64,000 nucleotides of DNA, taken from a virus. The notes below the pieces were generated by a model. The model saw only the letters and a list, made by a program, of their open reading frames with translations. It was not told the DNA's origin and ran no database searches. Both the position numbers and the translations under genes were made by a program. Of this stretch, positions 3,642 through 46,887 are shown piece by piece; the stretch's first letter is position 1, and every line of letters begins with the position of its first letter. The stretch is from positions 1 through 64,000 of IMG/VR virus record IMGVR_UViG_3300045988_137804, one strand, 5' to 3'.

Positions 3642-3998
3642 ATGATACGCAATAAAATAAACGATAAAAAATATATAGGTCAAAGTATAGATATATGGTA
3701 TAGATATAGAAATCATTTGAGTGAATCATATAATGTAAACAAAAAAGCTTACAATATGGCAATTCATAAGGCGATAAGAAAATATGGTAAAAGTAATTTT
3801 GAATTAATTGTTTTAGAAGAATGTCCAAAAGAAAAATTAAATGAACGAGAAATTTATTGGATAGAATATTACGATACATACAATGATGGTTACAATCAAA
3901 CAATTGGTGGGGATACATTAAAAAATACAATTGATAGAGCAAATATATATATCGTCTGTGGGATGAAGGAAAATCTATTAAAGACATTCGTGAAATAA
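3642..3998 (+). mobile_element. GIY-YIG homing endonuclease, catalytic domain ORF
   Basis: KYIGQS...YRYRNH...NEREIYWIEYYDTYNDGYN, typical of the I-TevI-like GIY-YIG domain. Confidence 0.8.
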
Positions 3999-6998: not shown

Positions 6999-7535
6999 TT
7001 GCATAGTGTCACAGCTATGCAGAGTATTTCTAAAAATAATATGAGAGGAAGTGATTGTGTGGTTAATTTAGAACCACGGATGATGCAAAAAGTACAAAAG
7101 TGTTTAGAAACACATGTTGGTGGTGAAGCATATTTTAATGAATTAGACGCTGCGATTAAATCAGATGAAAATCTTTTGAAGTCTTTCATTAATCGCATTG
7201 TCATAGAAACGAAGTGTCGCAACTTTGTAATGTCAGGTGAAATTGGTGTTGTATATTCTAAATTATATTCATACGATGACATTCATTTGTTGTTGCTGCC
7301 AGGTGGCTTGAGACACGATAAAGAAATTCCTTATGACATTGGGAGAATATATGAAGGAATGGAATTTGTATTCGTAGACGATTCATATTACTCAGGAAAA
7401 ACTTTGAATGCTGTGAAGAAATATATGGAATCTACTGGTGCAAAAATCATTGCAAATTATGTTTTCTACGATGGTAGCAGAGAAAATAAAGATAATGTGA
7501 GATCAATTTACAGATATTATGATCATCACGAATAA
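6999..7535 (+). CDS. Type I phosphoribosyltransferase-fold protein
   Basis: PRPP-binding motif EFVFVDDSYYSGKTL. The true start is uncertain; M candidates at 7043 and 7078. Confidence 0.6.
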   Translation: MHSVTAMQSISKNNMRGSDCVVNLEPRMMQKVQKCLETHVGGEAYFNELDAAIKSDENLLKSFINRIVIETKCRNFVMSGEIGVVYSKLYSYDDIHLLLLPGGLRHDKEIPYDIGRIYEGMEFVFVDDSYYSGKTLNAVKKYMESTGAKIIANYVFYDGSRENKDNVRSIYRYYDHHE

Positions 7536-7549
7536 GGAGAATAACATAT

Positions 7550-7747
7550 ATGGGAAGAAAATTCAGATGGTTGGATGCAATCAGGACAATGAATGTAAAT
7601 GATCTTGCACCATATTTAATAAAGGAATGTTTCAATTTTCATGATGGAACATGGTGGTCATCTCCAAGTGGTAATAAATTTGATTATCATGATGATGCTC
7701 TTGAAGATTGTATTCGGTGGTTAAATTCTAAATATGATGGGAGATAA
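7550..7747 (+). CDS. hypothetical protein
   Basis: ORF with a GGAGA ribosome-binding site. Confidence 0.35.
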   Translation: MGRKFRWLDAIRTMNVNDLAPYLIKECFNFHDGTWWSSPSGNKFDYHDDALEDCIRWLNSKYDGR

Positions 7748-9311: not shown

Positions 9312-9504
9312 AGAATATATAAATAGGAAATTATTTCACTGTTTGCTGAAAACTTAGAACTACAATCATTCAGACTTTTGCAAGTATAGCCTGAATCAAA
9401 ATAATAAAGAAGCTTGCAACATAATAAAACATAAAAAGCAAGTATAGCAAATTATTACAGGAATGCTTGATGCACAGTGTTGAGCGTTTATAAATTACAA
9501 GATG

Positions 9505-9744: not shown

Positions 9745-9833
9745 GGATCATTACATCAACTGGTAAGATGAGCTGCCTCATAAGCAGAAAGCCCTAATAA
9801 GGTATAAACTGGGTTCGACTCCCAGATGATCCA
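9745..9833 (+). tRNA. tRNA-like gene with class-II architecture (about 20-nt variable arm) and anticodon CAU. Identity is atypical or unknown.
   Basis: Hand fold: acceptor ggatcat/atgatcc; D-stem catc/gatg; anticodon stem gctgc/gcaga with loop ctCATaa; T-arm ctggg-ttcgact-cccag; discriminator A. Confidence 0.5.
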
Positions 9834-9969
9834 CTGTATCTGAATATTCACAGAATGTGTTATTCGTTTCCTTTCTTTCTATGAACATTCTAGTTCAGAT
9901 ACAATGTTTTTCATAACTTCCTTTTGTTTGGTTGGCAACTTACCATATAGACAAAAAAGTTGCAATAAT

Positions 9970-10038
9970 GGGCTGTGGTGTAATGGTAGCACATAATACT
10001 TTGACTATTATAGATCCAGTTCAAATCTGGACAGCCTA
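9970..10038 (+). tRNA. tRNA-Gln (anticodon UUG)
   Basis: Hand fold: acceptor gggctgt/acagcct (G1·U72); anticodon stem taata/tatta with loop ctTTGac; T-arm ccag-ttcaaat-ctgg. Confidence 0.7.
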
Positions 10039-10124
10039 GCTTGTGAGATTTTGGAACGTCTCACAAATATTACTCCTTTCATGGGTTATTTATAGTGCAA
10101 AAGATGTGCAGAAATGCACATCGA

Positions 10125-10210
10125 GCTGGCATGGCGGAATTGGTAGACGCAATGGACTTAAAATCCATCGGTAAAAACACACCATACGAGTTCGAGTCTC
10201 GTTGCCAGTA
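10125..10210 (+). tRNA. tRNA-Leu (anticodon UAA), class II
   Basis: D-arm tggcggaattggtagacgc is identical to the bacterial tRNA-Leu consensus. Anticodon stem atgga/tccat with loop ctTAAaa. Long variable arm. T-arm acgag-ttcgagt-ctcgt. Acceptor gctggca/tgccagt. Confidence 0.8.
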
Positions 10211-10367
10211 TTAGCCATATGAGACACTTATTCCCTGAGCAAGAATGATGAAGTCGGTACAAAAGTGCTCAATTTCTGTATTTTACATTCGTGTGTTATG
10301 CAAGCAGCACGAATGACATATGGCATTAACCCCCAACATAGGGTATTTACATTTTACAAAAATGGTT

Positions 10368-10437
10368 TGGCTGTTAGTTCAGTGGGAAGAACATCTATTG
10401 CAAGAGAGGGTCACAGGTTCGAGTCCTGTACAGTCAA
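10368..10437 (+). tRNA. tRNA-like element, probably degenerate. Acceptor, D-arm and T-arm are canonical but no regular anticodon arm can be drawn.
   Basis: Acceptor tggctgt/acagtca; D-arm gttc-agtgggaa-gaac; T-arm acagg-ttcgagt-cctgt. The middle segment contains the self-complementary TTGCAA. Confidence 0.35.
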
Positions 10438-10505
10438 CTTGACGCAGAAAACATTTGATTTTTGCATTCATGTTTTGCACGCCTCATTTCTTCAATGTGC
10501 AAAGT

Positions 10506-24940: not shown

Positions 24941-25747
24941 ATGATTAAAATTTCATGTAAAGAATACGCAGCCAATCTAAAAGAAGAACTAAAAGAGTTA
25001 TGCGAAAAATCACCAAGACAGCGTTGCCTTACAGTGGTTCAGATTGGGAATGATGCAGCAAGTAACTCTTATGTAAATGGCAAAAGAAAAGATTGTGAGT
25101 ATGTTGGGATCAAGTTCAATCATGTACATATTACAGATTATGAAAATCTTGACGAATCAGATCTATGCCAAATTATTAAAGAACTTGATAAATCAGAGGA
25201 AGTAGATGGAATCATCATCCAGCTTCCTATTCCAGACAAATACAATGTAAAAATATTGCAGCAGTTCATTAGTCCAGAAAAAGATGTTGATGGTTTCAGA
25301 AAGGATTCGCTTTACAATCCATGCACTCCGCAAGGAATTATTGATTGGCTCGAAGCTAATGACATTGATTTAAGAGGTAAGTTAATAACTGTATTAGGAA
25401 GAAGTGAGATAGTAGGTAAGCCACTTGTAAACATGTTGATTGATAATGGTGCAACAGTTATTAATTGCAACAGCAAAACACCAGAGAATAAAATAAAGTA
25501 TTTTACTAGAATGTCAGATATTGTTGTTTCTGCAATTGGTAAACCACTTAAGTTAGATTGGATTTATTTTGATGATTATACAATTATTGTAGATGTTGGA
25601 ATCAATAGAGATAAGGACGGTAAGTTATGTGGAGATGTAAATACGAAAGACTTTGATAAATTCTTTTCATCTAATTATGTAACACCTGTTCCGGGTGGTG
25701 TTGGTCTGTTAACAAGGGTTACATTGCTGAAAAATGTGATGAGATAA
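24941..25747 (+). CDS. folD: Bifunctional methylene-tetrahydrofolate dehydrogenase/cyclohydrolase
   Basis: VQIGNDAASNSYVNGKRK, DGIIIQLPIP, PVPGGVGLLT. Confidence 0.85.
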   Translation: MIKISCKEYAANLKEELKELCEKSPRQRCLTVVQIGNDAASNSYVNGKRKDCEYVGIKFNHVHITDYENLDESDLCQIIKELDKSEEVDGIIIQLPIPDKYNVKILQQFISPEKDVDGFRKDSLYNPCTPQGIIDWLEANDIDLRGKLITVLGRSEIVGKPLVNMLIDNGATVINCNSKTPENKIKYFTRMSDIVVSAIGKPLKLDWIYFDDYTIIVDVGINRDKDGKLCGDVNTKDFDKFFSSNYVTPVPGGVGLLTRVTLLKNVMR

Positions 25748-32385: not shown

Positions 32386-35300
32386 ATGGTAAGAGTTATT
32401 AAAAGAGATTGCTCTGAAGTTGATTTTGATAAGAATAAAATTTCAACGGCAATCTTAAAGGCTATGAAAAATGGTAGCGGAATTGTTAAACCCAAAATTG
32501 CGGAATCTATTGCAGATGAGATTGAAAAGGAATGTAAGGATCGAGAAGAGATTGATATTTCTGAAATTGAAGCAATGGTATTTGACAAGCTGATTACCAA
32601 AAAACAGAGACTTACTGCAAGAGCATATGAAGGTTATAGAAGTACAAGAGAATTCCAGAGAGAGAATGAGAATACTGTTGACGAGGAAATTCTTGGAATT
32701 GTAGAAGCAAACAACGAAGAATGGAAAGATGAAAATGCGAATAAAAATCCAGCATTAAACCCTACAATTCGTGATTATATTGCTGGATCTGTAAGTAAAG
32801 ACGCAACAAAAAGATTTTTATTATCTCCAGAAATTATTCAGAGTCATTTAGAAGGAATTATTCATTTCCATGATTCAGATTACTTTATTCAACATATGCA
32901 TAACTGCGGATTAGTAAATCTTGAAGATATGCTTCAGAATGGTACTGTTATTAGTGAAACAATGATTGAAAAGCCACATAGTTTTTCTACAGCATGTACC
33001 GTGACTACTCAGATCATTGCTCAAGTTGCATCTAGTCAGTATGGTGGACAGAGTATCTCACTTGCACATCTGGCACCGTTTGTGGATGTTTCCAGAGAGA
33101 AGATCCGTAAGGAAGTGATCAGCGAGCAGGAACTGGTCGGAATGGAATATCCGGAAGATGTGCTCAATGAGATCGTAGAGAGAAGACTGAAAAAAGAGAT
33201 TACAAAAGGTGTTCAAACAATTCAGTACCAGTTAATCACACTTATGACAACAAATGGGCAAGCACCGTTCATCACAATTTTTATGTATCTGAATGAAGCA
33301 AAGAATGAGAGAGAAAAGAAAGACCTAGCGATGTTAATTGAAGAAATGTTACTTCAGAGAAAACTTGGTGTGAAAAATGAAGATGGTGTTTATATTGCAC
33401 CAGCATTTCCAAAACTCATTTATGTTCTTGAGGATGACAATTGTAACGAATCAACAGAATATTGGTATTTAACAGAACTTGCTGCCGAATGCACGTCAAA
33501 AAGATTAGTTCCAGATTACATCTCTGAAAAAGTAATGAAAGAACTTAAAGGTGATGTGTATACATGCATGGGATGTGTTGATGGAAAAGAACTTGTTACA
33601 TATACATATAACAATAATCTTTACGTTGAATCATTTGAAAGAATGTGGAATAGACTTTCTGATAGATTTGAAATAAAACATCAGTATAATGACAACAACC
33701 CAAATCTATATATGGATTTGAGCGATGTAGAAATCTATGACACAGACAAAGGATTTGTTAATACAGAGAGAATAATCAGAAATATATCAACCTCTTGGCT
33801 TGATGTTAATTTTTCCAACGGAAGAAGATTACTTTGTACAGAAGATCACCCACTTACATTAAGAGATGGAAGAACAATCCATGCATCTGAATTAAAATTA
33901 AAGGATAGAATTCTCATTAATTCACATCAGTATAATGAAGAAAATATTGTATTCAATGAAGACAAGGCGTGGTTGTTAGGTTTTATGCTTTGTGATGGAT
34001 GTTATCAAGGCTCTTTATTTTCTTCAATTGCAGCAGAAAATGAAGATGAAATTGCAGATAAGTTTTCAGAAACAATGAAGAAATATTTTGATCTCGATAT
34101 TGAAAAAAAATTACAGCAAAGAGGTAAGAAAGGAACATATTACGATTTGATTGCACATAGTCAGAATGAAAAAATATCTGTGTATTGTAATTATTTCGCT
34201 AAAAAATTCGAAGGTCTGAATAAGATTGATAGACATGTTCCTAATGAAGTATTTTCATGGAATTATTCGTCAAAACTTGCTTTCCTGGCAGGAATGATTG
34301 ATGCAGATGGGTACATTAATAGTTCTCAGAATAAAGGATTTTCTATAGTTCAAATTGGTTCTACAAACAAAGAACTTGCATTACAACAAATGGCACTTGC
34401 ACAGTCTTTAGGTATGCCAGCAAAGCTGTACCATAACCATTACAGTAAACGTAACCCAGAATTGATTAGATACAGAGTTGAGTTTTATCCAACAGATGAA
34501 CTAATTAATTATATTGTATGTAAAAAGAAATATGATAATTATATTGATTCAAATGTATCTAGTTATAATCATGAATCTGAAGTTACTGAAATCAACAAAA
34601 TTAATAAAAAAATGTTTTCTTACGATGTAACAACAACAAGTGAGCATTTTGAAATTAGCGGAATCTATAGTCATAATTGTAGGTCTTTTTTAACTGTTGA
34701 TAGATTTTCTGATAAAGTTGGAAACATTTCTAACGCTAAAAACTTTAATGGAAAACATAAATATTACGGAAGATTTAATCAGGGTGTTGTTACAATTAAT
34801 CTTCCAGATATTGCATTTTCATCTGATGGCGACATGGATAAGTTTTGGGGAATTTTCGAAGAAAGAACAGAATTATGCCATAAGGCTTTAAAGGCTAGAC
34901 ATAACCGTTTGCTTAAAACTTCTTCTGATATTGCACCAATCCTGTGGCAGAACGGAGCATATGCAAGACTTAAAAAACATGAACCAATTGACAAACTTTT
35001 ATTTGATGGATATTCAACGATTTCTCTTGGATATGCAGGACTTTATGAGTGTGTGAAATATATGACAGGAAAATCCCATACAGATGGTGATGTAGGAGAA
35101 AAGTTTGGATTGGAAGTAATGCAAGCATTAAATGATAAATGTAATCAGTGGAAAGAAGCTGAAAACATTGATTATAGTTTGTATGGCAGCCCAATCGAAA
35201 GCACTACGTATAAATTTGCAAAGTGCTTAAAAAATAGATTCGGTGATGATATTTTTATTAAACTTGATGGATTTGATAGAAATTATATTACAAATAGTTA

Positions 35301-35730
35301 TCACGTTCCTGTGTTTGAAAGAATTACAGCATTTGACAAATTTAAAATTGAATCAAAATTCCAAAACCTTAGTCCAGGAGGCGCAATTTCGTATTGTGAA
35401 ATCCCATCAATTAACGTAAATATTCCAGCATTATTGGAAGTAATTAAATTTATTTATGACAATATTATGTACGCAGAAATCAATACAAAAGATTGTTATT
35501 GCGAAGTGTGTGGATACGATGGAGACATTCCACTTATTGACGATGATAACGGTAAACTTGTATGGGAATGCCCTAATTGTGGCAACACAGATAATACAAA
35601 AATGGACATCGCATTTAGAGTTTGTGGTTATGTTGGTACTGCAAAAAATGGTGGAAACCAAGGAAGATATGGAGATATCCACGATAGAGTTTACCACATC
35701 GATGACTTTGAATACGAGGAAAATGAATAA
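32386..35730 (+). CDS. nrdD: Anaerobic ribonucleoside-triphosphate reductase (class III) carrying an in-frame intein
   Basis: ATP-cone N-terminus. C-terminal Zn ribbon CEVCGYDG...CPNCGN and glycyl-radical motif RVCGYVG. Intein at 33574..34677. Confidence 0.85.
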   Translation: MVRVIKRDCSEVDFDKNKISTAILKAMKNGSGIVKPKIAESIADEIEKECKDREEIDISEIEAMVFDKLITKKQRLTARAYEGYRSTREFQRENENTVDEEILGIVEANNEEWKDENANKNPALNPTIRDYIAGSVSKDATKRFLLSPEIIQSHLEGIIHFHDSDYFIQHMHNCGLVNLEDMLQNGTVISETMIEKPHSFSTACTVTTQIIAQVASSQYGGQSISLAHLAPFVDVSREKIRKEVISEQELVGMEYPEDVLNEIVERRLKKEITKGVQTIQYQLITLMTTNGQAPFITIFMYLNEAKNEREKKDLAMLIEEMLLQRKLGVKNEDGVYIAPAFPKLIYVLEDDNCNESTEYWYLTELAAECTSKRLVPDYISEKVMKELKGDVYTCMGCVDGKELVTYTYNNNLYVESFERMWNRLSDRFEIKHQYNDNNPNLYMDLSDVEIYDTDKGFVNTERIIRNISTSWLDVNFSNGRRLLCTEDHPLTLRDGRTIHASELKLKDRILINSHQYNEENIVFNEDKAWLLGFMLCDGCYQGSLFSSIAAENEDEIADKFSETMKKYFDLDIEKKLQQRGKKGTYYDLIAHSQNEKISVYCNYFAKKFEGLNKIDRHVPNEVFSWNYSSKLAFLAGMIDADGYINSSQNKGFSIVQIGSTNKELALQQMALAQSLGMPAKLYHNHYSKRNPELIRYRVEFYPTDELINYIVCKKKYDNYIDSNVSSYNHESEVTEINKINKKMFSYDVTTTSEHFEISGIYSHNCRSFLTVDRFSDKVGNISNAKNFNGKHKYYGRFNQGVVTINLPDIAFSSDGDMDKFWGIFEERTELCHKALKARHNRLLKTSSDIAPILWQNGAYARLKKHEPIDKLLFDGYSTISLGYAGLYECVKYMTGKSHTDGDVGEKFGLEVMQALNDKCNQWKEAENIDYSLYGSPIESTTYKFAKCLKNRFGDDIFIKLDGFDRNYITNSYHVPVFERITAFDKFKIESKFQNLSPGGAISYCEIPSINVNIPALLEVIKFIYDNIMYAEINTKDCYCEVCGYDGDIPLIDDDNGKLVWECPNCGNTDNTKMDIAFRVCGYVGTAKNGGNQGRYGDIHDRVYHIDDFEYEENE
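33574..34677 (+). mobile_element. Intein of 368 aa with a LAGLIDADG homing-endonuclease domain, inserted in NrdD between ...YTCMG and CRSFL
   Basis: Starts with Cys (CVDGKEL) and ends ...SHN followed by Cys. LAGLIDADG motifs LLGFMLCDG and LAGMIDADG. Confidence 0.8.
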
Positions 35731-37719: not shown

Positions 37720-38203
37720 TAAAGTTAGTTTTGAACAGTTTAAAAAAGATTGGATTGATACATTTGGAGATGTAACAGAAGATAAGATTAAAGAGGTTTA
37801 TGATAACATTAAATTGCCAAAAAGAGCTACTGCAATGTCAGCAGGTCATGATATAAGCATTCCATTTGATACAAGTATTAAGAATGGCGAGGTTGTAAAA
37901 ATTCCTACCGGAATTCGATGCAAAATGGATGATGGATATGTAATGTTTGTGTTCCCCCGAAGTAGCATGGGAATTAAAAAAGGAATGGTAATTTGTAATA
38001 CTATTCCTGTAATTGATGGAGATTATTTTGGAGCAGATAACGAAGGTCATATCTTTATTTGTGTCACAAATACATACAAAAAATCAATAGAATTAAATTC
38101 TGGGGATAATATTGTACAGGCAGTTTTCACTAAATTTGGTGTAGCAGATGACGAAAAAATTACAGAAAAACGATTGGGAGGAGTTGGTAGCACTGGATTA
38201 TAA
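37697..38203 (+). CDS. dut: dUTP diphosphatase (trimeric dUTPase)
   Basis: SAGHDI, PRSS, IDGDYFG, and C-terminal motif V RLGGVGSTG. Confidence 0.8.
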   Translation: MQRIAKFSKVSFEQFKKDWIDTFGDVTEDKIKEVYDNIKLPKRATAMSAGHDISIPFDTSIKNGEVVKIPTGIRCKMDDGYVMFVFPRSSMGIKKGMVICNTIPVIDGDYFGADNEGHIFICVTNTYKKSIELNSGDNIVQAVFTKFGVADDEKITEKRLGGVGSTGL

Positions 38204-38855
38204 ACCTATAGATTTTGACGAATCAAAAGAAGTATGGAAATTATGTGATGATTATCCTGGCAATTATATTAGTAATTATGGAAGAGTTAAAAGGGATTCT
38301 TATACATATCATTATAAAAATGGAAAAATAAAAAATTACAAGCCTATAATAAAAAAATTAACTGAAACTAGCAAAAGGAAAGGTACAATTCAAGGGTATT
38401 TATGTACTCGAATGATTGGTTCTGATGGAAATAGTAAATGTGAAATGGGTCATAGGCTTGTAGCAAAAGCTTTTATTCCTAACCCAAATAACCTACCTAC
38501 AGTAAATCATAAAAATGGCAATAAACATGATAACCGAGTAGAAAATTTAGAATGGACTTCTTATTCTGACAACAATCAACATGCATACGCAAATGGCTTA
38601 AAAGGCGATAATGTTATAATGCTACAAGTTGACCAAGATAATTATATCAAACAAATATATTTTTCTGAAGAATATGCAGCGTTATGTAATTGTTTATCTA
38701 CGAAAAACATTAGAAATAGTTCTGAGAAAAATACGTTAGATTATTATAATAATAAATGGATTAGATTTTATCCAAACAAATACAAAATTACAGTAGACGA
38801 CAACGCAACGGAAGTTCGCAATGGTGGTTTCGGATCTACAACAAAATCTAAATAA
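38148..38855 (+). mobile_element. HNH homing endonuclease (NUMOD4-like N-terminus, then HNH)
   Basis: WKLCDDYPGNYISNYGRVKR; HNH core VNHKNGNKHDNRVENLEW. Overlaps the dut 3' end by 56 nt. Confidence 0.75.
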
Positions 38856-38877
38856 ACACATGTAATAATTATTGACA

Positions 38878-38920
38878 GGAATGCATAGTGTGGTAAAATG
38901 ATACTAACAAATGCATTCCT
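38878..38920. other. 10-bp-stem hairpin aggaatgcat...atgcattcct downstream of the HNH gene
   Basis: Seen directly. Confidence 0.5.
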
Positions 38921-39193
38921 CTATGTCCCTATGCAATCCAAATTTGCATTTTTTCATCAAAATTGTGTAAATTATTTTTGCACTTTTGTCGAGCGTCAAA
39001 TAAACGAAATAGTTTACAAAATAGACATAGAAGGTAGTGTTTTTGGGAAAATCTAAGAAAATGGTTTTAGTACCCAATTTTTGCTCTATGTCGAGTTCGA
39101 AAAATGGCTTAAAATAAGGCTTTTTTGAGGGTCAAAATCCTAATGAAATACCAATTTCATTCGAACTCAAAATCCACATTAAAAAGTAAAAAT

Positions 39194-39240
39194 AAAGGGT
39201 ACTAGACTTAGCAAATTGCTGGTTTAGTACCCTTTTATAA
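39194..39240 (+). terminator. Strong hairpin aaagggtact...agtacccttt, then a T-run. Terminator-like, with no gene immediately upstream.
   Basis: Seen directly. The loop contains a second palindrome, agcaaattgct. Confidence 0.45.
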
Positions 39241-39289
39241 AACGCAAAAATTATTTGCCCCAAAAGTGCAAAATTAGATTACACAATGA

Positions 39290-39450
39290 CATAGAGAATT
39301 TCCCAAAAACGATTTTTGGGAAGAAGATGAAAATGCCGATAAAGCCCGTGGTTGACACGTTTTCTCTTTCCCAAAAATTTTCCCAAAAATGAAGAAAAAG
39401 TTCCCAAAAACGATTTTTGGGGAAAATAGCCATTTTTGGGAAGCTTTATT
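39290..39450. repeat. Array of at least 7 copies of TTCCCAAAAA / TTTTTGGGAA. Two are arranged as the 23-bp palindrome TTCCCAAAAACGATTTTTGGG(G)AA. It lies immediately upstream of the TnsA-like gene and is a candidate transposon end (TnsB sites) or operator array. One inverted copy sits at 39041..39053.
   Basis: Seen directly. Confidence 0.6.
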
Positions 39451-39518
39451 CTTACACATGAATGCATTTGTTATTCATCAAAAACTGTATAAACATACAG
39501 ATGAAAGGAGCAAATGCT

Positions 39519-39863
39519 ATGCAGAAAAAGAATTACAAAGGTCGCTGCGAGAAATTAACAGTGCCAAAATCTAAGGATGTCTGCCATATCTATAATGACA
39601 TCCAAAAGTCTTATCTATTACAACTTCAGGACGATCCAAACATCAAAGAGATAAAATGTAATGTCCTTATGCTTGGATTGGAACTTGGAGAATTCACATC
39701 TGATTTTCAGTGTGTTACAGCAGACAACAATCTAATAGTGCGTGAATGTATCTCACGAGATGCTATCGCCAAACCAATGACAGCAAAACGATTAGATGCT
39801 TCAAGAGAGTATTGGTTTCGTCATGGCATAACAGATTGGGGGATTGTAACCGATGAAAAATAA
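39519..39863 (+). CDS. tnsA: TnsA-like endonuclease (short form) of a Tn7-like element
   Basis: Position and overlap with tnsB. Restriction-endonuclease-like D...E.x motif region SDFQCVTADNNLIVRECIS. AGGAG ribosome-binding site. Assignment is tentative. Confidence 0.45.
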   Translation: MQKKNYKGRCEKLTVPKSKDVCHIYNDIQKSYLLQLQDDPNIKEIKCNVLMLGLELGEFTSDFQCVTADNNLIVRECISRDAIAKPMTAKRLDASREYWFRHGITDWGIVTDEK

Positions 39864-41661
39864 GAGTCTATTTTATAATCCAAAAACCAAAGAAATATTT
39901 CGTGTGTTAGACAGTAAAGGTTCAAAAGTTCTTATCATTAATTGCACAAAGAAACAGATGCCTTATTGGACAGAATTCGATTCAATTTCTTCCTGTCGTT
40001 TAATCACAGAAGATGAATTACAGGACATGACTGGCACACATTTTCAAGAACTAACTGTACCATCAAAAGAATACAGATATGTTCAAGAAAGGTTTTCACT
40101 GATTTCAAATATCATTCCTATCATCGGAAATAAAAGCAAGCGTACTCAGATGATACGAATCATATCTGAAACAAATAATTGCAGTAAACAAACAATCAAA
40201 AACATCTTGTGCCAGTATCTCATCTATCAAAATATTTCTGCATTAGCACCGCAAAAGAGCAATGAAAAAGAACTAACAACAGATGAGAAAAACATGCGTT
40301 GGGCATTAAATAAGTTCTTCTATACAAAGAATAAGAATTCATTATCAACCGCTTACGTCATGATGCTTAAAGAAAAATATACAGATGAATACAACAACTT
40401 ATTACCACACCCAACCATTCATCAGTTCCGTTATTTCTATCGCAAAACAAAAAAGATGGAAACGTATTATATCTCAAGAGATGGCATAAAAGATTACCAA
40501 AGAAATCACAGACCATTGCTAGGAGAAGGAATTAGAACAGTTGCAAATAGCATTGGAACAGCTATGTTGGATTATACAATCTGTGATATTTATCTCGTAA
40601 ACGATAAACAAGAATTAATTGGTCGTCCATTAATGACAGCTTGCATTGATGTCTACAGCGGATTGTGTTGTGGTTACTCATTAACATGGGAAGGTGGAAT
40701 GTACAGTTTGCGTTCTTTGATGTTAAATGTGGTCACTAATAAGAAAGAACATTGTAGAAAGTTTGGAATAAATATCGAAGAATCCGACTGGAATTGTCAT
40801 CAATTACCTGCAACATTAATCACAGATAAAGGTTCAGAATATGCGTCAGAAAACTTTGAACAACTTACAGATTTAGGAGTGTCTATTATAAATCTACCAG
40901 CCTATAGACCAGAGTTAAAAGGATCAGTTGAAAAGTTTTTTGATATGATTCAATCACTTTATAAGCCACAGTTACTAGGAAAAGGTGTCATAGAATCTGA
41001 TTTCCAGGAACGTGGCTCACATGATTATAGAAGAGATGCTTGTCTAACATTAGAACAATTTGAAAAAATAATTCTTCGTTGCATCATCTATTATAATACA
41101 CAGAGAATTATCAAAAATTCACCACTGATTGAACAAAATATTCCGCCACATTCTTGTGACATATGGAACTATTATTTGACCTATAATGATGACTTTTTGA
41201 TAAGAATATCGCCACAGAATCTACTTTTATGTTTGCTACCAAGAACGAAAGGAGTGTTTAAAAGAAATGGTTTAAACGTCAATAGTCTCCGCTATAAGCA
41301 TAAAACATACACCGAAATGTATCTTGTAGGAGGAGATGTAACAGTAGCCTACAATCCAGAAGATGTTTCTTACATTTGGCTCATTGAAGAAAATGGAACG
41401 TATGTAAAATTTGAATTAATCAATTCTCAGTTCTATGGAAAGGATTTATCATTTGTAGAAAAATATATGGAGTCATCTAAGAAGCTAATTGCAGAAAATA
41501 CCGATGATAATTTACGAGCAAAAGTTACGCTTTCAAAAGATATAGATTTTGTAATTTCTGAAAGTGTACGTTCTAATGTAAGCACAAAAAATATCCGCAA
41601 GAATCGTCAGAAAGAACAGGAACTTACTCATAGAGATTTCGTAAAGGAGTATGAATTATGA
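39853..41661 (+). mobile_element. tnsB: TnsB-like DDE (Mu/rve-type) transposase
   Basis: DDE core DYTICDIY...TACIDVYSG...ITDKGSEYAS. Size and gene order fit. Confidence 0.8.
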
Positions 41662-42917
41662 TTAATATGAATAAAGTAATCAAAGAACTTCCTGATATGC
41701 TGTCCGGAAATGAACTTCAGAAAGCAATGTCTATTATTCCAAAATACGACAAACAGATTCAGGAAGATGGAAGTATGACCGAAAGACTTTTGAAATTATC
41801 TGACCTTTATAGCATTTATATTCCATCACAAATGTCTACTGAAATTTATAGCAAACTATATCTTGGAATCATTCGTTCTATGCAGAAAAAAGGAAACAAG
41901 TTAACTGTACAACAATTCAATTCAACTTATAGAACGATGCAGAATATTAAGAATAAAACTGGCAATCAGCAATATGATGGAATCATAGGTGGATCAGATT
42001 CATTTACAATTATTGGTGCAAGTGGGATAGGAAAATCATCAGCTATTTCTCGTGCATTGAATCTGATTGAAGCAAATCATGTAATAGAAATTGAACAGCC
42101 TTACACTAAAATACTTCCATGCTTAACAGTGCAATGTCCATTCGATTCTTCTGTAAAAGGATTATTACTTGAAATTCTTCGCAAAGTTGATGAGCAGTTA
42201 GGAACAGATTATGCACAAACAAAAAGGTTCACGACTGATATGCTTATAGGTGCTGTTAGTCAGGTGTGTTTAAATCATATTGGCTTGCTTGTTGTAGACG
42301 AAATACAGAACGTAGTTAATTCAAAGAACGGCAAGAACTTAATCGGATCATTGACGCAGCTAATCAACAATTCAGGCATTAGCATCTGCATGGTTGGAAC
42401 ACCAGATAGTGAAATATTCTTTGAACAGGCTATGCAATTAGCTCGTAGAAGTGTCGGATTAAAATACACAGCTTTGCCATACGATGAACATTTTTGCGAA
42501 GTATGTGAATGCTTATTTTCTTACCAATATGTAAAAAATATCACATATATAAATAGCACGACTATAGAATGGTTGTATCAACACAGTGCAGGAGTTATCT
42601 CTATTGTTGTATCATTAATTCATGATGCACAAGAGATTGCAATCTTAAATGGGAGAGAAGTATTAGATATTAAATCGTTAGACGAAGCATACAACAATAG
42701 ACTTTCTATGTTGCACGATTATATTAGACCTACTATGAGAAAGAAATCTATCGGCAATAATAAAATAAAGAAACAAAATATCATTACAACTTTGTCGATA
42801 AAAAATAGCGCAGATATTCAAACAGATTTAATACAAAGTCTTGCGAAAGAATGTAAGAAAGATGGAACAGATATTGTAGAAATACTGAGTCAACATATTA
42901 CAATTGAGGTGATTTAA
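41658..42917 (+). CDS. tnsC: TnsC-like AAA+ ATPase
   Basis: Walker A IIGASGIGKSS and Walker B LLVVDEIQN. Confidence 0.75.
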   Translation: MINMNKVIKELPDMLSGNELQKAMSIIPKYDKQIQEDGSMTERLLKLSDLYSIYIPSQMSTEIYSKLYLGIIRSMQKKGNKLTVQQFNSTYRTMQNIKNKTGNQQYDGIIGGSDSFTIIGASGIGKSSAISRALNLIEANHVIEIEQPYTKILPCLTVQCPFDSSVKGLLLEILRKVDEQLGTDYAQTKRFTTDMLIGAVSQVCLNHIGLLVVDEIQNVVNSKNGKNLIGSLTQLINNSGISICMVGTPDSEIFFEQAMQLARRSVGLKYTALPYDEHFCEVCECLFSYQYVKNITYINSTTIEWLYQHSAGVISIVVSLIHDAQEIAILNGREVLDIKSLDEAYNNRLSMLHDYIRPTMRKKSIGNNKIKKQNIITTLSIKNSADIQTDLIQSLAKECKKDGTDIVEILSQHITIEVI

Positions 42918-44318
42918 ATGATTGGATTTATGCCTAAATTATATCCAGATGAATTAGTGTATAGTTGGATTGCTAGGTATCATGTAAGAACTGGACATTA
43001 TAGTTATCAGCAAACAGCAAAACATCTACTAGATAAGAAAGCAAATATTGTCTCGAAAAAGTTTTTAAACGAATACTCAAATGAATTTTTTAACATCATC
43101 AAAAAGAATATTCCAATAAAAGAGTTAGTAATAAATCATAGTATGCTGTCAGCTTATATTAAATTTTTGCCAAAAGATAAGCGCAATAATCTAATAGAAT
43201 CCTATGAAAACAATTTAAGATATAAAGAGTCATCAATTGGATTTAAGACAAGAAGTAATGGTATTAGTATGCGATATTGTCCTATATGTGTAAAGGAAGA
43301 TCGAGAAAAATATGGAGAAACTTACTGGCACAGAGAACATCAATTTGTTGGAATTAATGTATGCACAAAGCATAAATGTTATCTTATAGATTCCAAAATG
43401 TCTGTAAAAAGTATTGATAAGTCTGAGTTTTATACCGCAGAATATGTCATAGAACAACATGATGATGTTAAGATTTCCAATAATGAGTATGAGATAAAGT
43501 TTGCCAAGTATTTTACAGAAGTCATAAATACAGAGTCAAATAATGACTCAAATATTGTGGAATATCTCAATACTATATTATTGAACTCAAAGTATAGAGC
43601 AAATGGATGTATGCTAAAAGATTTTAATAAATTGTACGATGATTATTCTGAATTATGCGAAAAGATTAATGTAAATATAATTTCTTCACAACCATCGTTA
43701 AGAGAGATATTAAAAAATAAACGCAGAACATTGGATATTTGTATCCTTGGAATGCTATTGAATATTTCGCCTTACGATCTCGTGAATAGAGTATTGCCAA
43801 ATACAAACAAAGAGGATATCAGAGAGCAAGTCATATTTTTAAGAGATGTAAAAAAGATGAGTTATAATCGTATTGCAAAAGAATTAAACGCAAGTAGAAG
43901 AGCAGTTGGTACAATATATCATAGTAAAAAAACTGAAAATGATTTAGATGTTCTTAAACTTCTTAAAGATGAACTGCCAAAATTCTATAATGGAGATTTA
44001 ACTAATGGAAGACCGCAAAAAATAACAGTATACACAGTTGAAAAACAATTTGATATTCCACAAAAAGTATTAATAAATAATAAATCCTATTATAACGAAA
44101 TAATCAAGTATGAAGAGTCTTATCCTGAATATTGGGCGAGAGAATTAGTATGGTCTTATAATAAACTAAAGGAAGATAAAGCATATATAAGTCAAAATAA
44201 AATAACCAAACAAATAAATATTCGTAAGGAGCAACCTGTAAAAGCTATACCATACATCTCTAAATATACAGACAAAGAAACTGCTGAAGCTATTAAATCA
44301 TTATTGCAAAAATCGTAA
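42918..44318 (+). CDS. tniQ: TniQ/TnsD-family target-selection protein
   Basis: N-terminal TniQ motif LYPDELVYSWIARYH and zinc ribbon CPICVKE...CTKHKC. Confidence 0.75.
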   Translation: MIGFMPKLYPDELVYSWIARYHVRTGHYSYQQTAKHLLDKKANIVSKKFLNEYSNEFFNIIKKNIPIKELVINHSMLSAYIKFLPKDKRNNLIESYENNLRYKESSIGFKTRSNGISMRYCPICVKEDREKYGETYWHREHQFVGINVCTKHKCYLIDSKMSVKSIDKSEFYTAEYVIEQHDDVKISNNEYEIKFAKYFTEVINTESNNDSNIVEYLNTILLNSKYRANGCMLKDFNKLYDDYSELCEKINVNIISSQPSLREILKNKRRTLDICILGMLLNISPYDLVNRVLPNTNKEDIREQVIFLRDVKKMSYNRIAKELNASRRAVGTIYHSKKTENDLDVLKLLKDELPKFYNGDLTNGRPQKITVYTVEKQFDIPQKVLINNKSYYNEIIKYEESYPEYWARELVWSYNKLKEDKAYISQNKITKQINIRKEQPVKAIPYISKYTDKETAEAIKSLLQKS

Positions 44319-44368
44319 AAAAATGGGGAATAGAAGAGTATTAAATCTCAACTATTCCCCATAATTAA
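44317..44368. terminator. Bidirectional rho-independent terminator (11-bp stem atggggaatag/ctattccccat) between tniQ (+) and the endolysin (-)
   Basis: Seen directly. A/T runs on both sides. Confidence 0.6.
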
Positions 44369-44378
44369 TTATAGAAAA

Positions 44379-45524
44379 TTATTTTAAAGCACCGCTTGAA
44401 TTAAAGCTATATTCTTTTCCACCTATTTTAATTATTTCATTACAAGCCATTGATCCATCATCTTTAAGATAATATTTTGTGCCTTTATCTGTAACCCAAT
44501 GATTTCTCATCATTGCTCCGACTGGGATACAATCCTTATCTTTATTATACCAATACCATTTATTATTTTTTTTTAACCAACCAGTTACCATTGAACATCC
44601 TGGAAATCCAGAGACTTCTCCACTTGATACAAAATAATAATCATTTGTCCCATCATTATATTCGCCTAAAACTGCTGAACCAGTTTGATGATTTTTACCT
44701 CCACTTGTTCTCAATAGATACCAAAAACCATCAATTTTTCTCCAACCCGTAACCATCGCACCGATTGCATAATATGGCGTATTAGATTCACTTAAATAAT
44801 ACCAGTCGCCATTATCACAAAGCCAACCAGTTTTCATACTGCAATCATCATTAAAATAATACCAATGTCCATTTATTGATTCCCATTTATTATTTATAGC
44901 ATAACCATTTTTGTCAAAGTAGTACCAAACGTTATCTAGACATTTCCACTGTTCCTTTGGGTATGATTCGTCATCATTTCTATACCACCAGCCAATATTG
45001 TCTTTTTTCCAACCAACAGATATTTTATTAGTAATATCTTTCTTGAACTGATTCCAAATAGAAGAGTCACAACCGTTTGCACCCCAACCTGTCCAACCTG
45101 GACAAGACTTAGAGCATACATCCCAATGACGAACAACATGAGCTGCATCGATGTTATATTTCTTCATAAGTGTTTTAGTAAGTTCAACTGTATTTCTATA
45201 TGTTCCATCAGAAATCTTTCCGTCTGTAGAACACATTTCGATGCTAATTGAATTACTATTCGTACATTTTCCAAATAAGTTATTTGAACCGTAATTTCTT
45301 CCAACAGCCCAAGCCGTGTCACTATCGGAAACTACCTGTACTACGTTCTCTGTATCAACGAAATAATGAGCAGATGCACCACGGTTAGTACTTTTAAAGT
45401 AGTTGCCGTTGTTCACAGATTTGTCCCACCAATTTCCTGTGTAGTGAATTACAATATACTTTCTTCCGTTATTACCTTTTGTGTAATTAACTTTAGTAAG
45501 GTTTTGAATAAGTTTGTAAGCCAT
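44379..45524 (-). CDS. Endolysin: N-acetylmuramoyl-L-alanine amidase (Amidase_2/PGRP) with C-terminal choline-binding-type cell-wall-binding repeats
   Basis: YIVIHYTGN...SAHYFVD. Repeated GW..DNGDWYY / TGW.K.dg.WYY modules. Confidence 0.8.
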   Translation of the reverse strand: MAYKLIQNLTKVNYTKGNNGRKYIVIHYTGNWWDKSVNNGNYFKSTNRGASAHYFVDTENVVQVVSDSDTAWAVGRNYGSNNLFGKCTNSNSISIEMCSTDGKISDGTYRNTVELTKTLMKKYNIDAAHVVRHWDVCSKSCPGWTGWGANGCDSSIWNQFKKDITNKISVGWKKDNIGWWYRNDDESYPKEQWKCLDNVWYYFDKNGYAINNKWESINGHWYYFNDDCSMKTGWLCDNGDWYYLSESNTPYYAIGAMVTGWRKIDGFWYLLRTSGGKNHQTGSAVLGEYNDGTNDYYFVSSGEVSGFPGCSMVTGWLKKNNKWYWYNKDKDCIPVGAMMRNHWVTDKGTKYYLKDDGSMACNEIIKIGGKEYSFNSSGALK

Positions 45525-45562
45525 AAAAATACCTCCTTTGAAATAAAAGAACTTTATAGATA

Positions 45563-45599
45563 CAAAAAGAGAGCAACGAATAAAATCGTCACTCTCTGA
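45563..45599 (-). terminator. Hairpin plus T-run on the - strand after tail gene 45625..46887
   Basis: agagag...ctctct stem followed by ttttt on the - strand. Confidence 0.4.
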
Positions 45600-45624
45600 A
45601 TTAATAAAATTAGATATTTAGTTG

Positions 45625-46887
45625 TTAGATTCCTCTGGTTACTAGTAATGTTCCACTTGTAAGATCTGGTAATCCTGTAAGTTTTCCATTAGATACCCCT
45701 AGTGTAATAGAAGTGGCAGATGGTGTTCCATATGTTACAGATTTATAATAACTTGTTCCGTTGAATGCATACATAGTAGTGGTTGAAGTTCCCCATGAAC
45801 TTGAACTGGAAGCTGTAGCATAACCATACGCTTTGATTGTCCCAGATGTAGTTTTAAATGATACTGTTGGGTTTGTAACATCAATCAAATAAGCTTCGCA
45901 ATTGTTATTGGACGATGTTGAAGATGAAGAATCTCCAGTATATGTACCAGTTACTCCAAGAATTGATACTCCAGATTTGATATTAGAAGCAATAATTTTA
46001 TTTTGTTCTGTAGAAGAAATTGATACTTTTCCAGAGCCATTATGGTATCCGGATGGAATAGTATATGTTCCAGCTTTAGTAGAAATTGTTCCAGTAACCG
46101 CACCATTATTTGTCATTGTACCTGTAGTTTTACCACTACTAATATAAGCGGTTTTACCAGAGAGAATGTTTGTTGCTGTAGCTGTTGCATCTGAAGTGTT
46201 TGTGCCTGTGGAAGTACCAGAAGAGGAGACATCGAGTGTTCCAGTCAATTTAACGCCGTTAATTGATGTAAATGTAACACCTTTTTTTACTTCTCTAACA
46301 GAAGCATTACCAAATTTGCTTGCATCCACAAGCAAAGTCAAATCTTGATCACCTACATATGCGCCGATTTTATCATCATTATTAGGATTCCAAGTCCCAG
46401 TTATTTTTGCAAATTTTAAATTATAACCTCCAATCGAGCTTACATGTGTTTCTACTGAAGACACGGTATGTGCAACATCTGGATTTCTAGGTAATGTTCC
46501 ACTAATATTTACGCCATTCGCACTTGTAAAAGTATAGCCTGATACAACAGCGTCTTGTGGCGCGTCACCAAATTTATTAGCTCTTGTTGTTGTTGTTAAA
46601 ATATCGCCCTGTTGAACAATTGCTTTGTTTGTATCTGCATTAGATCCCAAATTATTTACATTTTGTGAAATACTAATACTTGCTGATGTACCGCTTTTAT
46701 TATATATAGGATCTGTACCAACTGAGCCATATTGAAACAAATCTGTTCTATGTTCAAGCGTACCAGTAATAGCAGTACCACTTTTATTATGAGCCTTTAC
46801 GCCACTTGCCATACCACTCGCAGTAACCGTATCCCCTGTCAAATCAATCAGAGTTTTTCCATTATAAACAACTTTATTTGTCGCCAT
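45625..46887 (-). CDS. Tail or receptor-binding structural protein with internal repeats (GVTFTS.NGV.ISGTL)
   Basis: Ser/Thr/Gly-rich with a repeated module. Located in the tail block. Confidence 0.5.
   Translation of the reverse strand: MATNKVVYNGKTLIDLTGDTVTASGMASGVKAHNKSGTAITGTLEHRTDLFQYGSVGTDPIYNKSGTSASISISQNVNNLGSNADTNKAIVQQGDILTTTTRANKFGDAPQDAVVSGYTFTSANGVNISGTLPRNPDVAHTVSSVETHVSSIGGYNLKFAKITGTWNPNNDDKIGAYVGDQDLTLLVDASKFGNASVREVKKGVTFTSINGVKLTGTLDVSSSGTSTGTNTSDATATATNILSGKTAYISSGKTTGTMTNNGAVTGTISTKAGTYTIPSGYHNGSGKVSISSTEQNKIIASNIKSGVSILGVTGTYTGDSSSSTSSNNNCEAYLIDVTNPTVSFKTTSGTIKAYGYATASSSSSWGTSTTTMYAFNGTSYYKSVTYGTPSATSITLGVSNGKLTGLPDLTSGTLLVTRGI

What the first reader, a model, noticed from the sequence alone, without database searches (positions are those of the whole stretch)
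39519..44318. Tn7-like TnsA-TnsB-TnsC-TniQ operon inside a phage genome, with no second end before the lysis module
A complete heteromeric transposase plus target selector sits exactly where the + strand early arm meets the - strand lysis/tail arm. It comprises a short TnsA-like protein, a DDE TnsB with the TDKGSEY motif, an AAA+ TnsC and a TniQ with a zinc ribbon. Only 60 bp, forming a bidirectional terminator, separate tniQ from the endolysin. Either the left end and cargo lie beyond the tail genes, so the phage late region or the whole phage is the cargo of a Tn7-like element. Or the phage uses TnsABC-TniQ instead of an integrase, as a Tn7-type transposable phage. Or an element inserted here and lost one end. 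No CRISPR-Cas is present, so it is not a classical CAST. Any of these outcomes is unusual.
Basis: partly seen in the sequence, partly recalled or inferred. Interest (0 to 1): 0.75.

Follow-up and report, generated by a model that had tools for sequence, protein, structure and literature searches.

The report
Phage lysogeny via Tn7-like mini-transposon
A roughly 205-kb gut phage carries Tn7-type transposition genes beside a 368-bp mini-transposon, and it appears to use them instead of an integrase to insert its whole genome at one chromosomal site, which I found described in no paper.

Summary
Four co-oriented genes (39519-44318) encode a short TnsA-fold protein, a TnsB with an intact DDE triad, a TnsC AAA+ ATPase and a TnsD-like TniQ. 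They lie between the early and late arms of a phage of about 205 kb.

A 368-bp unit (38924-39291, 5'-TGTC...GACA-3') has two TnsB-site-like repeats at each end, and the tns genes lie outside it.

Related contigs show lysogens as chromosome | 368 | tns-late...early-HNH | 368 | chromosome, with 5-bp target duplications. The insertion point is 34-38 nt after the stop codon of a polysaccharide deacetylase gene. I also found single-copy joined forms like the window, a solo 368-bp copy with a perfect duplication, and a re-integration next to a resident solo copy.

The TnsA-like protein lacks two of the three Tn7 TnsA catalytic residues in all 42 homologues examined. Smaller relatives in cultured Clostridia share the architecture and often carry a serine resolvase.

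Best reading: the prophage is an unresolved cointegrate made by replicative transposition of the mini-element. The "lost end" and "ordinary insertion" options are refuted. Literature searches found no description of this.

The parts
38924..39291 (+). 368-bp mini-transposon holding both transposon ends (5'-TGTCCC...ATGACA-3'). This is the unit that appears at both prophage junctions and as solo copies.
   Evidence: Homology between the window and host-junction contigs starts exactly at 38924 (L001, L021, L104, L018) and ends exactly at 39291 (L009, L106, L108, L109, L111, L120). A solo copy in L103 has a perfect 5-bp duplication, AAGGT. Contigs break k or k-1 nt inside each boundary for k=31, 55, 115 and 141.
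38924..38954 (+). Terminus TGTC plus TnsB-site-like repeat A (end 1).
   Evidence: Inverted-repeat pair I1 and motif scan. It aligns with the reverse complement of 39261-39291.
38964..38988 (+). TnsB-site-like repeat B, direct with A.
   Evidence: Pair I4 has 27-nt arms that are 89% complementary to 39261-39287. The motif occurs nowhere else in the 64-kb window at 3 mismatches or fewer.
39237..39260 (-). TnsB-site-like repeat D, inverted and weaker (about 16 of 25 positions match repeat B).
   Evidence: Read directly from the sequence. This assignment is tentative.
39261..39291 (-). TnsB-site-like repeat C plus terminus (...GACA on the + strand; end 2).
   Evidence: The right homology breakpoint falls here in six junction contigs.
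39197..39236 (+). Strong hairpin plus T-run inside the mini-element (GGGTACTAGAC...GTTTAGTACCC TTTT).
   Evidence: Present in the RNAfold structure of the interior and invariant in the window, L001, L002, L007 and L009. Its function is unknown.
38872..38899 (+). Best promoter-like site in the region (TTGACA, 16 nt, TG-n-TAAAAT). It lies in the phage backbone just outside end 1 and points into the mini-element.
   Evidence: 11 of 12 matches plus an extended -10. The total number of promoter-like hits in the region equals the chance expectation, so this is only a lead.
39299..39443 (.). Operator-like palindromes TTCCCAAAAACGATTTTTGGGAA (39299-39322 and 39401-39424) plus related half-sites, between the mini-element and the tnsA-like gene.
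   Evidence: D1, D3, I8. A similar motif follows the mini-element in the distant relative L060.
39519..39863 (+). Short TnsA-like protein (114 aa). It has the catalytic-domain fold only and lacks the equivalents of E63 and K132.
39853..41661 (+). TnsB DDE transposase (602 aa).
41658..42917 (+). TnsC/TniB AAA+ regulator (419 aa).
42918..44318 (+). TniQ/TnsD-like target selector (466 aa) with an N-terminal TniQ domain and a C-terminal HTH.
44323..44362 (.). Hairpin between tniQ and the endolysin gene.
   Evidence: -20.7 kcal/mol.
38148..38855 (+). HNH_3/NUMOD4 endonuclease gene, the last backbone gene before the mini-element. Whether it belongs to the module is uncertain.
   Evidence: A 39%-identical homologue sits just before the mini-element in the small relative L041, but there is none in L072 or L060.

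Best explanation
The window is the single-copy, joined (circular or concatemeric) form of a phage of about 205 kb. Its lysogeny module is a Tn7-type machine built 'inside out'.

Both transposon ends sit in one 368-bp mini-element (38924-39291). The genes for a nuclease-dead TnsA-like protein, TnsB, TnsC and a TnsD-like TniQ lie just outside it.

Proposed steps:
1. TniQ recognises the 3' end of a host polysaccharide deacetylase gene and recruits TnsC and TnsB.
2. TnsB nicks the 3' ends of the mini-element and joins them to a target staggered by 5 bp, about 35 nt downstream of the stop codon.
3. Because the 5' strands are not cut, replication across the 368 bp turns this intermediate into a cointegrate. 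The whole phage genome is then in the chromosome between two direct copies of the mini-element.
4. Excision is cointegrate resolution, meaning recombination between the two copies. It regenerates the circular phage and leaves a solo mini-element.

Shown: the architecture, the junctions, the duplications, the site preference, the solo copies, the residue changes and the family-wide conservation.

Inferred: the replicative chemistry, the role of TniQ in choosing the site, and how the phage resolves the cointegrate. No recombinase was found in the 64 kb examined.
For: 1. Both boundaries are defined to the base by comparing junctions.
- Left junctions, chromosome|TGTC-368-tns: L001, L021, L104, and the contig start of L018.
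- Right junctions, HNH-368-GACA|chromosome: L009, L106 (plus 11 similar places), L108, L109, L111, L120.
- Host flanks have about 42% GC against about 32% for the phage, and they carry RecQ, SulP, LacI, ABC-F and Ppk genes.

2. Five-bp duplications.
- ACACA on L001 (left) and L009 (right).
- AAGGT on both sides of the solo copy in L103.
- ATAAA in L072 and AGGGT in L075, both genome assemblies named as cultured strains.

3. The two host flanks reconstruct one 18-bp hairpin (-32 kcal/mol) between convergent deacetylase and ABC-F genes. Insertions fall at three adjacent loop positions, AACAC, ACACA and CACAC.

4. The single-copy form HNH-368-tns occurs in at least 7 independent assemblies.

5. 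L109 reads HNH-mini-ACACA-mini-ACACA-host, which is a re-integration beside a resident solo copy.

6. The TnsA-like protein lacks the equivalents of E63 and K132 in all 42 homologues. It is established knowledge (May and Craig 1996) that Tn7 catalytic mutants of TnsA switch to replicative transposition and give cointegrates.

7. About 30 distant relatives (50-60% TnsB identity) in Clostridia and Negativicutes have the same inverted-repeat pair at about -440 and -217 from tnsA.
- L072, L075 and L060 show mini-tnsABCQ-cargo-mini.
- L041 is a contig of circular type.
- Serine resolvases lie in the cargo of at least 8 relatives.

8. Sister phages, 94% identical through the HNH gene, have an excisionase-like HTH_17 gene and a host junction at the same genome position instead of the mini-element and tns genes.
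Against: - A non-canonical nuclease site (D62, R75, E76) cannot be excluded.
- No resolvase or other recombinase was found in the window, and about 140 kb of the genome was not seen.
The 226-kb contig behind L120 is only inferred to start in the left copy.
- The same final structure would arise from a linear genome with 368-bp terminal repeats, or from a concatemer.
- L021 and L106 show insertions into a truncated resident copy, which I explain only loosely.
- L108 and the solo L103 lie at other sites, so targeting is not absolute.
Confidence: 0.65

Rival explanations
1. Same machinery, different donor. The substrate is linear virion DNA carrying a 368-bp direct terminal repeat, or a head-to-tail concatemer. 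TnsB joins the outermost TGTC and GACA termini to the target without replication, as retroviral or Mu infecting DNA does. The window's single-copy junction is then the collapsed terminal repeat or the concatemer junction.
For: The integrated structure (direct repeats each bounded by TG...CA, plus a 5-bp duplication) has the same topology as an LTR provirus. The phage replicates with its own DnaE-type machinery and probably forms concatemers. Assemblers collapse terminal repeats into circles. No resolvase was found in the window.
Against: Small relatives of 11-12 kb have no phage genes, carry serine resolvases, and in one case form a contig of circular type. The same architecture therefore exists without virions or concatemers. 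Family-wide loss of two TnsA catalytic residues fits a nick-only pathway. Solo copies with perfect duplications are the expected end product of replicative transposition, although recombination between terminal repeats would also leave them.
Confidence: 0.2
2. The tns genes are a passenger. The phage integrates through an unseen site-specific recombinase whose attP happens to coincide with the mini-element.
For: One variant, L007, has an intact tyrosine recombinase near the lysis genes. Sister phages use an Xis-type module at this genome position.
Against: The junctions are at TGT...ACA termini with 5-bp duplications of differing sequence (ACACA, AACAC, CACAC, AAGGT, and TCCAC/CATTA-type flanks). 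They do not share a common core, so they are not att-site crossovers. The tyrosine recombinase gene is fragmented in L003-L005 and absent from the window, yet those lineages still show branching at the mini-element boundary.
Confidence: 0.04
3. An ordinary small Tn7-like transposon landed in a phage, or it lost one end, and is irrelevant to the phage life cycle.
For: The four-gene operon is common in non-phage contexts.
Against: There is only one mini-element in the phage. The tns genes are not bracketed by ends. Host junctions coincide with the mini-element boundaries on both the early-arm and late-arm sides.
Confidence: 0.03
4. The junction contigs are assembly chimeras created at a repeat.
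For: All phage evidence comes from short-read metagenome assemblies, and the 368-bp repeat does break them.
Against: The same junction types recur in more than 10 independent samples and assemblers, with base-exact boundaries and matching duplications. Genome assemblies named as cultured strains, holding relatives, show the same structure with both copies on one contig.
Confidence: 0.02

Closest known systems
Tn7 (TnsABC+TnsD pathway, attTn7 downstream of glmS)
   Same: All four proteins have Tn7 TnsA, TnsB, TnsC and TnsD as their best solved relatives. Also shared are TGT...ACA termini with repeated sites, a 5-bp duplication, and orientation-specific insertion a fixed short distance downstream of a conserved gene's stop codon, with the tnsA-proximal side next to that gene.
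   Different: Both ends lie together in a 368-bp unit and the tns genes are outside it. TnsA is reduced to the catalytic domain and lacks the equivalents of E63 and K132. The product is a whole replicon flanked by direct copies of the unit rather than a simple insertion. There is no TnsE.
Tn7 TnsA catalytic mutants and TnsA-less type V-K CASTs (replicative transposition giving cointegrates)
   Same: The predicted chemistry is the same: 3' nicking only, then fusion of donor and target with the element duplicated in direct orientation. This rests on established knowledge from May and Craig 1996 and the V-K CAST literature. Benler et al., PMC8649781, discuss the replicative pathway for tnsA-less relatives.
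   Different: In those systems cointegrates are a laboratory artefact or an unwanted by-product. Here the cointegrate appears to be the selected, stable product, namely the prophage or integrated element.
Tn5053/Tn402 family (TniA, TniB, TniQ, TniR)
   Same: A TnsB/TnsC/TniQ-type machine coupled to a serine resolvase. It transposes through a cointegrate that is then resolved. Small relatives of the present module carry serine resolvases.
   Different: Tn5053 genes lie between its ends, it has no TnsA-like protein, and it targets res sites. No resolvase was found in the phage window.
Bacteriophage Mu and other transposable phages
   Same: A phage that enters the chromosome by DDE transposition, using a MuA/TnsB-family transposase and a MuB/TnsC-family ATPase (phrog_310 and phrog_296), with a 5-bp duplication.
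   Different: Mu's ends are at the termini of its linear genome. Mu inserts almost at random and replicates by transposition. This phage has both ends adjacent, is largely site-specific, encodes its own DnaE-type replication apparatus, is about five times larger, and has TnsA-like and TniQ components.
IS21 tandem 'reactive junctions' and IS circle junctions (replicon fusion)
   Same: The two ends are brought close together on a circular donor, and the result is a whole replicon inserted between two element copies.
   Different: In those systems the abutted ends face outward, a few bp apart, and the donor already holds two copies or is the excised circle itself. Here the ends face inward across 368 bp and the donor holds one copy.

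Membership tests
Tn7-like transposons | TnsB-type DDE transposase with an intact catalytic triad | tested here: met
   Tn7 TnsB 7pik, E=1e-37. D240, D325 and E360 align with D273, D361 and E396 and are invariant in 17 relatives.
Tn7-like transposons | TnsC/TniB AAA+ ATPase | tested here: met
   Pfam TniB and AAA_22. Tn7 TnsC, E=1e-18. Walker A and B read directly from the translation.
Tn7-like transposons | TniQ/TnsD target selector | tested here: met
   Pfam TniQ, E=6e-21, plus HTH. Tn7 TnsD 8glu, E=2e-9.
Tn7-like transposons | TnsA endonuclease fold | tested here: met
Tn7-like transposons | TnsA catalytic residues (E63, D114, K132 in Tn7) | tested here: not met
   Q29, D62 and I78 occupy these positions. 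Q is present in 38 of 42 and never E or D. I or V is present in 42 of 42 and never K. The alignment is at low identity but agrees with the structural match.
Tn7-like transposons | Ends 5'-TGT...ACA-3' with several TnsB-binding repeats | tested here: met
   TGTC...GACA with repeats A and B (direct) and D and C (inverted). Binding itself was not tested.
Tn7-like transposons | 5-bp target-site duplication | tested here: met
   AAGGT (L103), ACACA (L001/L009 and L109), ATAAA (L072), AGGGT (L075).
Tn7-like transposons | tns genes and cargo lie between the left and right ends | tested here: not met
   Both ends lie within 38924-39291 and the tns operon starts at 39519, outside them. The same is true in about 30 relatives.
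Tn7-like transposons | TnsD-type homing downstream of a conserved gene | tested here: inconclusive
   The phage sits 34-38 nt after the deacetylase stop codon in L001, L104 and L021. Relatives sit 13 nt after gpmI (L072, L075) and after ppdK (L060). L103 and L108 lie elsewhere. No binding data exist.
Transposable phages (Mu-like) | Transposon ends are the termini of the packaged linear genome, with host DNA attached | not testable with these tools
   Virion DNA ends are needed. In the assembled map the ends are adjacent and face inward.
Transposable phages (Mu-like) | Genome replication by repeated replicative transposition | not tested
   The phage encodes DnaE-type Pol III alpha, a RecD2-like helicase, RecJ and ligase, which argues for autonomous replication.
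Tn5053/Tn402 family | Serine resolvase TniR and a res site within the element | tested here: not met
   No resolvase by tblastn in the 64-kb window. One is present in the cargo of small relatives.
CRISPR-associated transposons | Cas effector genes and a CRISPR array next to tniQ | tested here: not met
   tniQ is followed after 60 bp by the endolysin gene. There are no array-like repeats in 38500-46000.

The most novel reading that the evidence does not exclude
A previously unrecognised class of integration module, in which lysogeny is a 'frozen cointegrate'. A non-autonomous mini-transposon of 250-370 bp holds both ends. An adjacent TnsA(dead)-TnsB-TnsC-TnsD operon lies outside it. Usually a resolvase is also present. 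Together they let any circular replicon, from 11-kb islands to a 205-kb phage, integrate site-specifically by replicative transposition and leave by resolution. The module is widespread in gut Clostridia and in Negativicutes. Pipelines that look for ends flanking the tns genes would miss it.
Probability: 0.55. Interest if true: 0.9.

Novelty: new variant of a known kind. Interest (0 to 1): 0.82.

Why it matters
If this reading is correct, three things follow.

1. It adds a third way for tailed phages to lysogenise, beside site-specific recombinases and Mu-type transposition, and it does so in a phage above 200 kb.

2. It is a natural case in which inactivating TnsA has turned the cointegrate from a by-product into the functional product. 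It implies that a Tn7-type machine can place more than 200 kb at a defined site using only a 368-bp donor sequence. That is directly relevant to engineering large-cargo insertion with CAST and Tn7 systems.

3. It shows that a large family of Tn7-like loci in Clostridia and Negativicutes has its ends upstream of tnsA rather than around the cargo. Their boundaries and cargo are therefore probably mis-called in existing surveys.

The predictions can be tested directly with existing read sets and a three-plasmid assay.

Tried and rejected
- Megablast of the region and of the early arm against INPHARED phages gave no match.
- An IMG/VR scan with TnsB peptides and one with a mini-element DNA pattern found nothing.
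- An exact mini-element pattern in species-representative genomes found nothing.
- Rfam gave only a sub-threshold rli56 hit over the operator region, which I judge to be chance.
- A single-sequence search and a profile search of the short protein against PDB sequences found nothing. Only the fold comparison worked.
- I looked for a conserved RNA structure in the mini-element interior. The long-range stem predicted for the window is broken in the L001, L007 and L009 variants, so I dropped the idea.
- I looked for a recombinase in the window by tblastn with family resolvases and the L007 integrase, and found none.
- I tried to obtain both junctions on one contig through cluster members. The 226-kb contig's tns end was not displayed, so this remains inferred.
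- Seven literature searches and two papers read found no description of this architecture or of phage integration by TnsABC-TniQ. The library is not complete.
- The source record LR756492.1 (204,597 bp) is, from my memory only, one of the published 'huge phage' genomes. I could not verify this.

Full report
**1. What is at the stated coordinates**

Four co-oriented, overlapping or abutting ORFs occupy 39519-44318. Each was tested.

- TnsB (602 aa) matches Pfam Mu-transpos_C. Among solved structures it is closest to Tn7 TnsB (7pik, E=1e-37). The aligned DDE residues D240, D325 (in TDKGSEY) and E360 are invariant in 17 relatives spanning 55-93% identity.
- TnsC (419 aa) matches Pfam TniB and AAA_22 and Tn7 TnsC (E=1e-18).
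- TniQ (466 aa) has an N-terminal TniQ domain and a C-terminal HTH. Its closest solved relative is Tn7 TnsD.

The operon lies where the GC skew flips. On one side is an early arm encoding DnaE-type polymerase, a RecD2-like helicase, RecJ, NrdDG, ThyX, FolD and dUTPase. On the other side is a late arm of endolysin, tail and virion proteins.

**2.

The 663-bp non-coding stretch upstream (38856-39518) contains an inverted-repeat structure. Two direct copies of a site of about 25 nt lie at 38930-38954 and 38964-38988. One clear inverted copy lies at 39261-39285, with a weaker one beside it. The motif occurs nowhere else in the 64 kb. The outer limits read 5'-TGTC...GACA-3'.

**3. Relatives define the unit to the base**

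TnsB homologues 91-96% identical occur on many metagenome contigs.

In L001, a 288-kb contig, the operon is followed by the same lysis and tail genes. It is preceded by 42%-GC bacterial genes (RecQ, SulP, a polysaccharide deacetylase) rather than by the phage early arm. Homology to the window starts exactly at TGTC (38924).

In L009 the phage early arm and HNH gene are followed by the whole 368-bp segment. After GACA (39291) comes bacterial DNA with an ABC-F gene.

Further left junctions are L021 and L104. L104 is 100% identical to the window over 1,956 nt. L018 starts exactly at TGTC. Further right junctions are L106 (with 11 similar places), L108, L109, L111 and L120.

The lysogen therefore reads chromosome | 368 | tns-late ... 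early-HNH | 368 | chromosome.

The window's arrangement, HNH-368-tns, is the single-copy joined form. It occurs in at least seven independent assemblies.

Contigs that stop inside the segment stop k or k-1 nt from a boundary for the assembler's k: 30 nt for k=31, 55 for k=55, 115 for k=115 and 141 for k=141. This is the signature of an assembly-graph branch exactly at 38924 and 39291.

Contigs of 205,447 and 209,343 bp end at the segment. The window maps to a 204,597-bp record, LR756492.1. The phage genome is therefore about 205 kb.

**4. Hallmarks of transposition**

- The five bases flanking L001 on the left and L009 on the right are both ACACA.
- The two flanks reconstruct a single 18-bp hairpin (-32 kcal/mol) between the convergent deacetylase and ABC-F genes.
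- Other lysogens have the right flank starting AACAC or CACAC. These are independent insertions at three adjacent positions in the hairpin loop.
- The insertion point is 34-38 nt after the deacetylase stop codon in three left junctions. This holds even in a host lineage where the local sequence differs. That pattern fits recognition of the gene's 3' end, as with TnsD and glmS.
- A JGI contig (L103) carries a solo 368-bp copy inside an unrelated gene, with a perfect AAGGT duplication.
- L109 reads HNH-mini-ACACA-mini-ACACA-host, with the two copies 364/368 identical. This is a phage integrated at the same 5 bp beside a resident solo copy.
- L021 and L106 are insertions into a truncated resident copy.

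Solo copies are what cointegrate resolution, or recombination between the two repeats, leaves behind.

**5. The TnsA-like protein**

I recalled the Tn7 TnsA sequence from memory. One search showed it matches 1f1z_A over all 273 residues (one difference). Profile alignment of the short-protein family to it gives Q29=E63, D62=D114, E76=Q130 and I78=K132. This is consistent with the structural match.

Across 42 homologues, position 29 is Q in 38 and never acidic. Position 78 is I or V in all 42 and never K. D62, R75, E76 and C77 are invariant. Two of the three residues whose mutation abolishes 5' cleavage in Tn7 are therefore absent family-wide.

It is established knowledge that such Tn7 mutants transpose replicatively and produce cointegrates.

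**6. A family feature, not a phage oddity**

A scan of species-representative genomes found the same four-gene operon at 50-60% TnsB identity in 80 loci. These come from Lachnospiraceae, Oscillospiraceae and Ruminococcus, and from Negativicutes such as Sporomusa, Pelosinus, Megamonas and Pectinatus.

About 30 of these loci have an inverted-repeat pair at about -440 and -217 from tnsA.

In assemblies named as cultured strains, both copies are on one contig:
- Blautia sp. MSJ-9 (L072): two copies 100% identical, duplication ATAAA.
- Ruminococcus sp. AM22-13 (L075): duplication AGGGT. As in L072, the insertion is 13 nt after the gpmI stop codon.
- Anaerotruncus sp. G3 (L060): insertion after ppdK, flanks ATTTT/ATTTC.

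L041 is an 11.6-kb contig with a 78-nt terminal overlap, so it is circular or collapsed. Serine resolvases lie in the cargo of at least eight relatives.

**7. Module swap**

Sister phages (L105, L110, L117) are 94% identical through the HNH gene. At the same genome position they have an excisionase-like HTH_17 gene followed by host DNA, instead of the mini-element and tns operon. This position is therefore the phage's integration-module slot.

**8. Mechanism**

The topology consists of one copy in the donor, direct copies at both junctions, a 5-bp duplication, solo copies afterwards, a nuclease-dead TnsA, and resolvases in relatives. It is exactly that of replicative transposition arrested at the cointegrate.

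I rank this first, at about 0.65. The broader statement, that the tns module and the mini-element are the phage's integration system, deserves about 0.9.

The main rival, at about 0.2, is direct integration of a linear genome with 368-bp terminal repeats, or of a concatemer unit. It gives the same end structure and cannot be excluded without virion-end data.

Passenger-transposon, hidden-integrase and assembly-artefact explanations are contradicted by the base-exact junctions, by duplications of differing sequence, and by the single-contig structures in the strain assemblies.

**9. Comparison and novelty**

The proteins make this a Tn7-like system. Two defining features fail the test: the tns genes are not between the ends, and the TnsA catalytic residues are not conserved.

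It works like a TnsA-mutant Tn7, a V-K CAST or Tn5053 (cointegrate then resolution). It serves the purpose that Mu's transposase serves, but with inward-facing adjacent ends, site specificity and autonomous replication.

Literature searches found no description of it. These included the Tn7 cargo survey (PMC8649781) and the target-selector survey (PMC10293859). I rate it a new variant of a known kind, of high interest.

Noticed in passing
window 32386-35730: The NrdD anaerobic ribonucleotide reductase is 1,114 aa, against about 718 aa in sister phages. It carries intein and LAGLIDADG homing-endonuclease domains. Other relatives have the gene split by HNH or I-HmuI-like endonuclease genes instead.
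   Followed up: partly
window 39299-39443; L060 about 9441-9480: Palindromes TTCCCAAAAACGATTTTTGGGAA (two full copies plus half-sites) lie between the mini-element and the tnsA-like gene. A similar TTCCCAAA...TTTTGGGGAA motif occupies the same place in a relative with only about 52% TnsB identity. This is probably an operator for an unknown regulator.
   Followed up: partly
window 38872-38899: A near-consensus extended -10 promoter lies in the phage backbone and points into the mini-element. In a lysogen it would be separated from the tns operon and would face the host flank. This could act as a switch dependent on the integration state, but a terminator-like hairpin (39197-39236) lies in between.
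   Followed up: no
L007 18636-19631; L003 7208-7965; L004 and L005 about 7150-7650: One phage variant has an intact 331-aa tyrosine recombinase beside the lysis genes, in addition to the tns module. In three other variants the gene is fragmented, and it is absent from the window.
   Followed up: partly
L105, L110, L117 (after the HNH gene): Sister phages lack the mini-element and the tns operon. They carry an HTH_17 excisionase-like gene followed directly by host genes (LacI, oxidoreductases). The integration module has been swapped at the same genome position.
   Followed up: partly
L021 105-134; L106 7596-7714: In one host lineage the site downstream of the deacetylase gene holds a truncated resident mini-element (interior positions 229-368), followed by a Gp49/HTH toxin-antitoxin pair. 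New phage insertions land inside this remnant. How the remnant arose is unexplained.
   Followed up: partly
window 38148-38855; L041 9807-10439: An HNH_3/NUMOD4 endonuclease gene immediately precedes the mini-element both in the phage and in an 11.6-kb non-phage relative (39% identity over 127 aa). It is absent before the second copy in L072 and L060. It may have travelled with the module or be a separate homing element.
   Followed up: partly
window 9745-10438: A cluster of four tRNA genes (Met, Gln, Leu, and one with an unassignable two-base anticodon call).
   Followed up: no
window 168-1679, 5385-6965, 24941-25747; L102 8945-9871: The phage encodes two C5 cytosine methyltransferases, an SPFH/flotillin-like protein, FolD and, upstream of the window, an adenylosuccinate synthetase. 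These are unusual auxiliary genes for a phage that also lysogenises.
   Followed up: no
L103 (reverse complement) 1675-3643: The solo mini-element interrupts a single reading frame that continues on both sides, so it appears to inactivate a host gene. I guessed from its sequence that this is a radical-SAM-type protein, but a Pfam scan of a 37-aa fragment found nothing.
   Followed up: no
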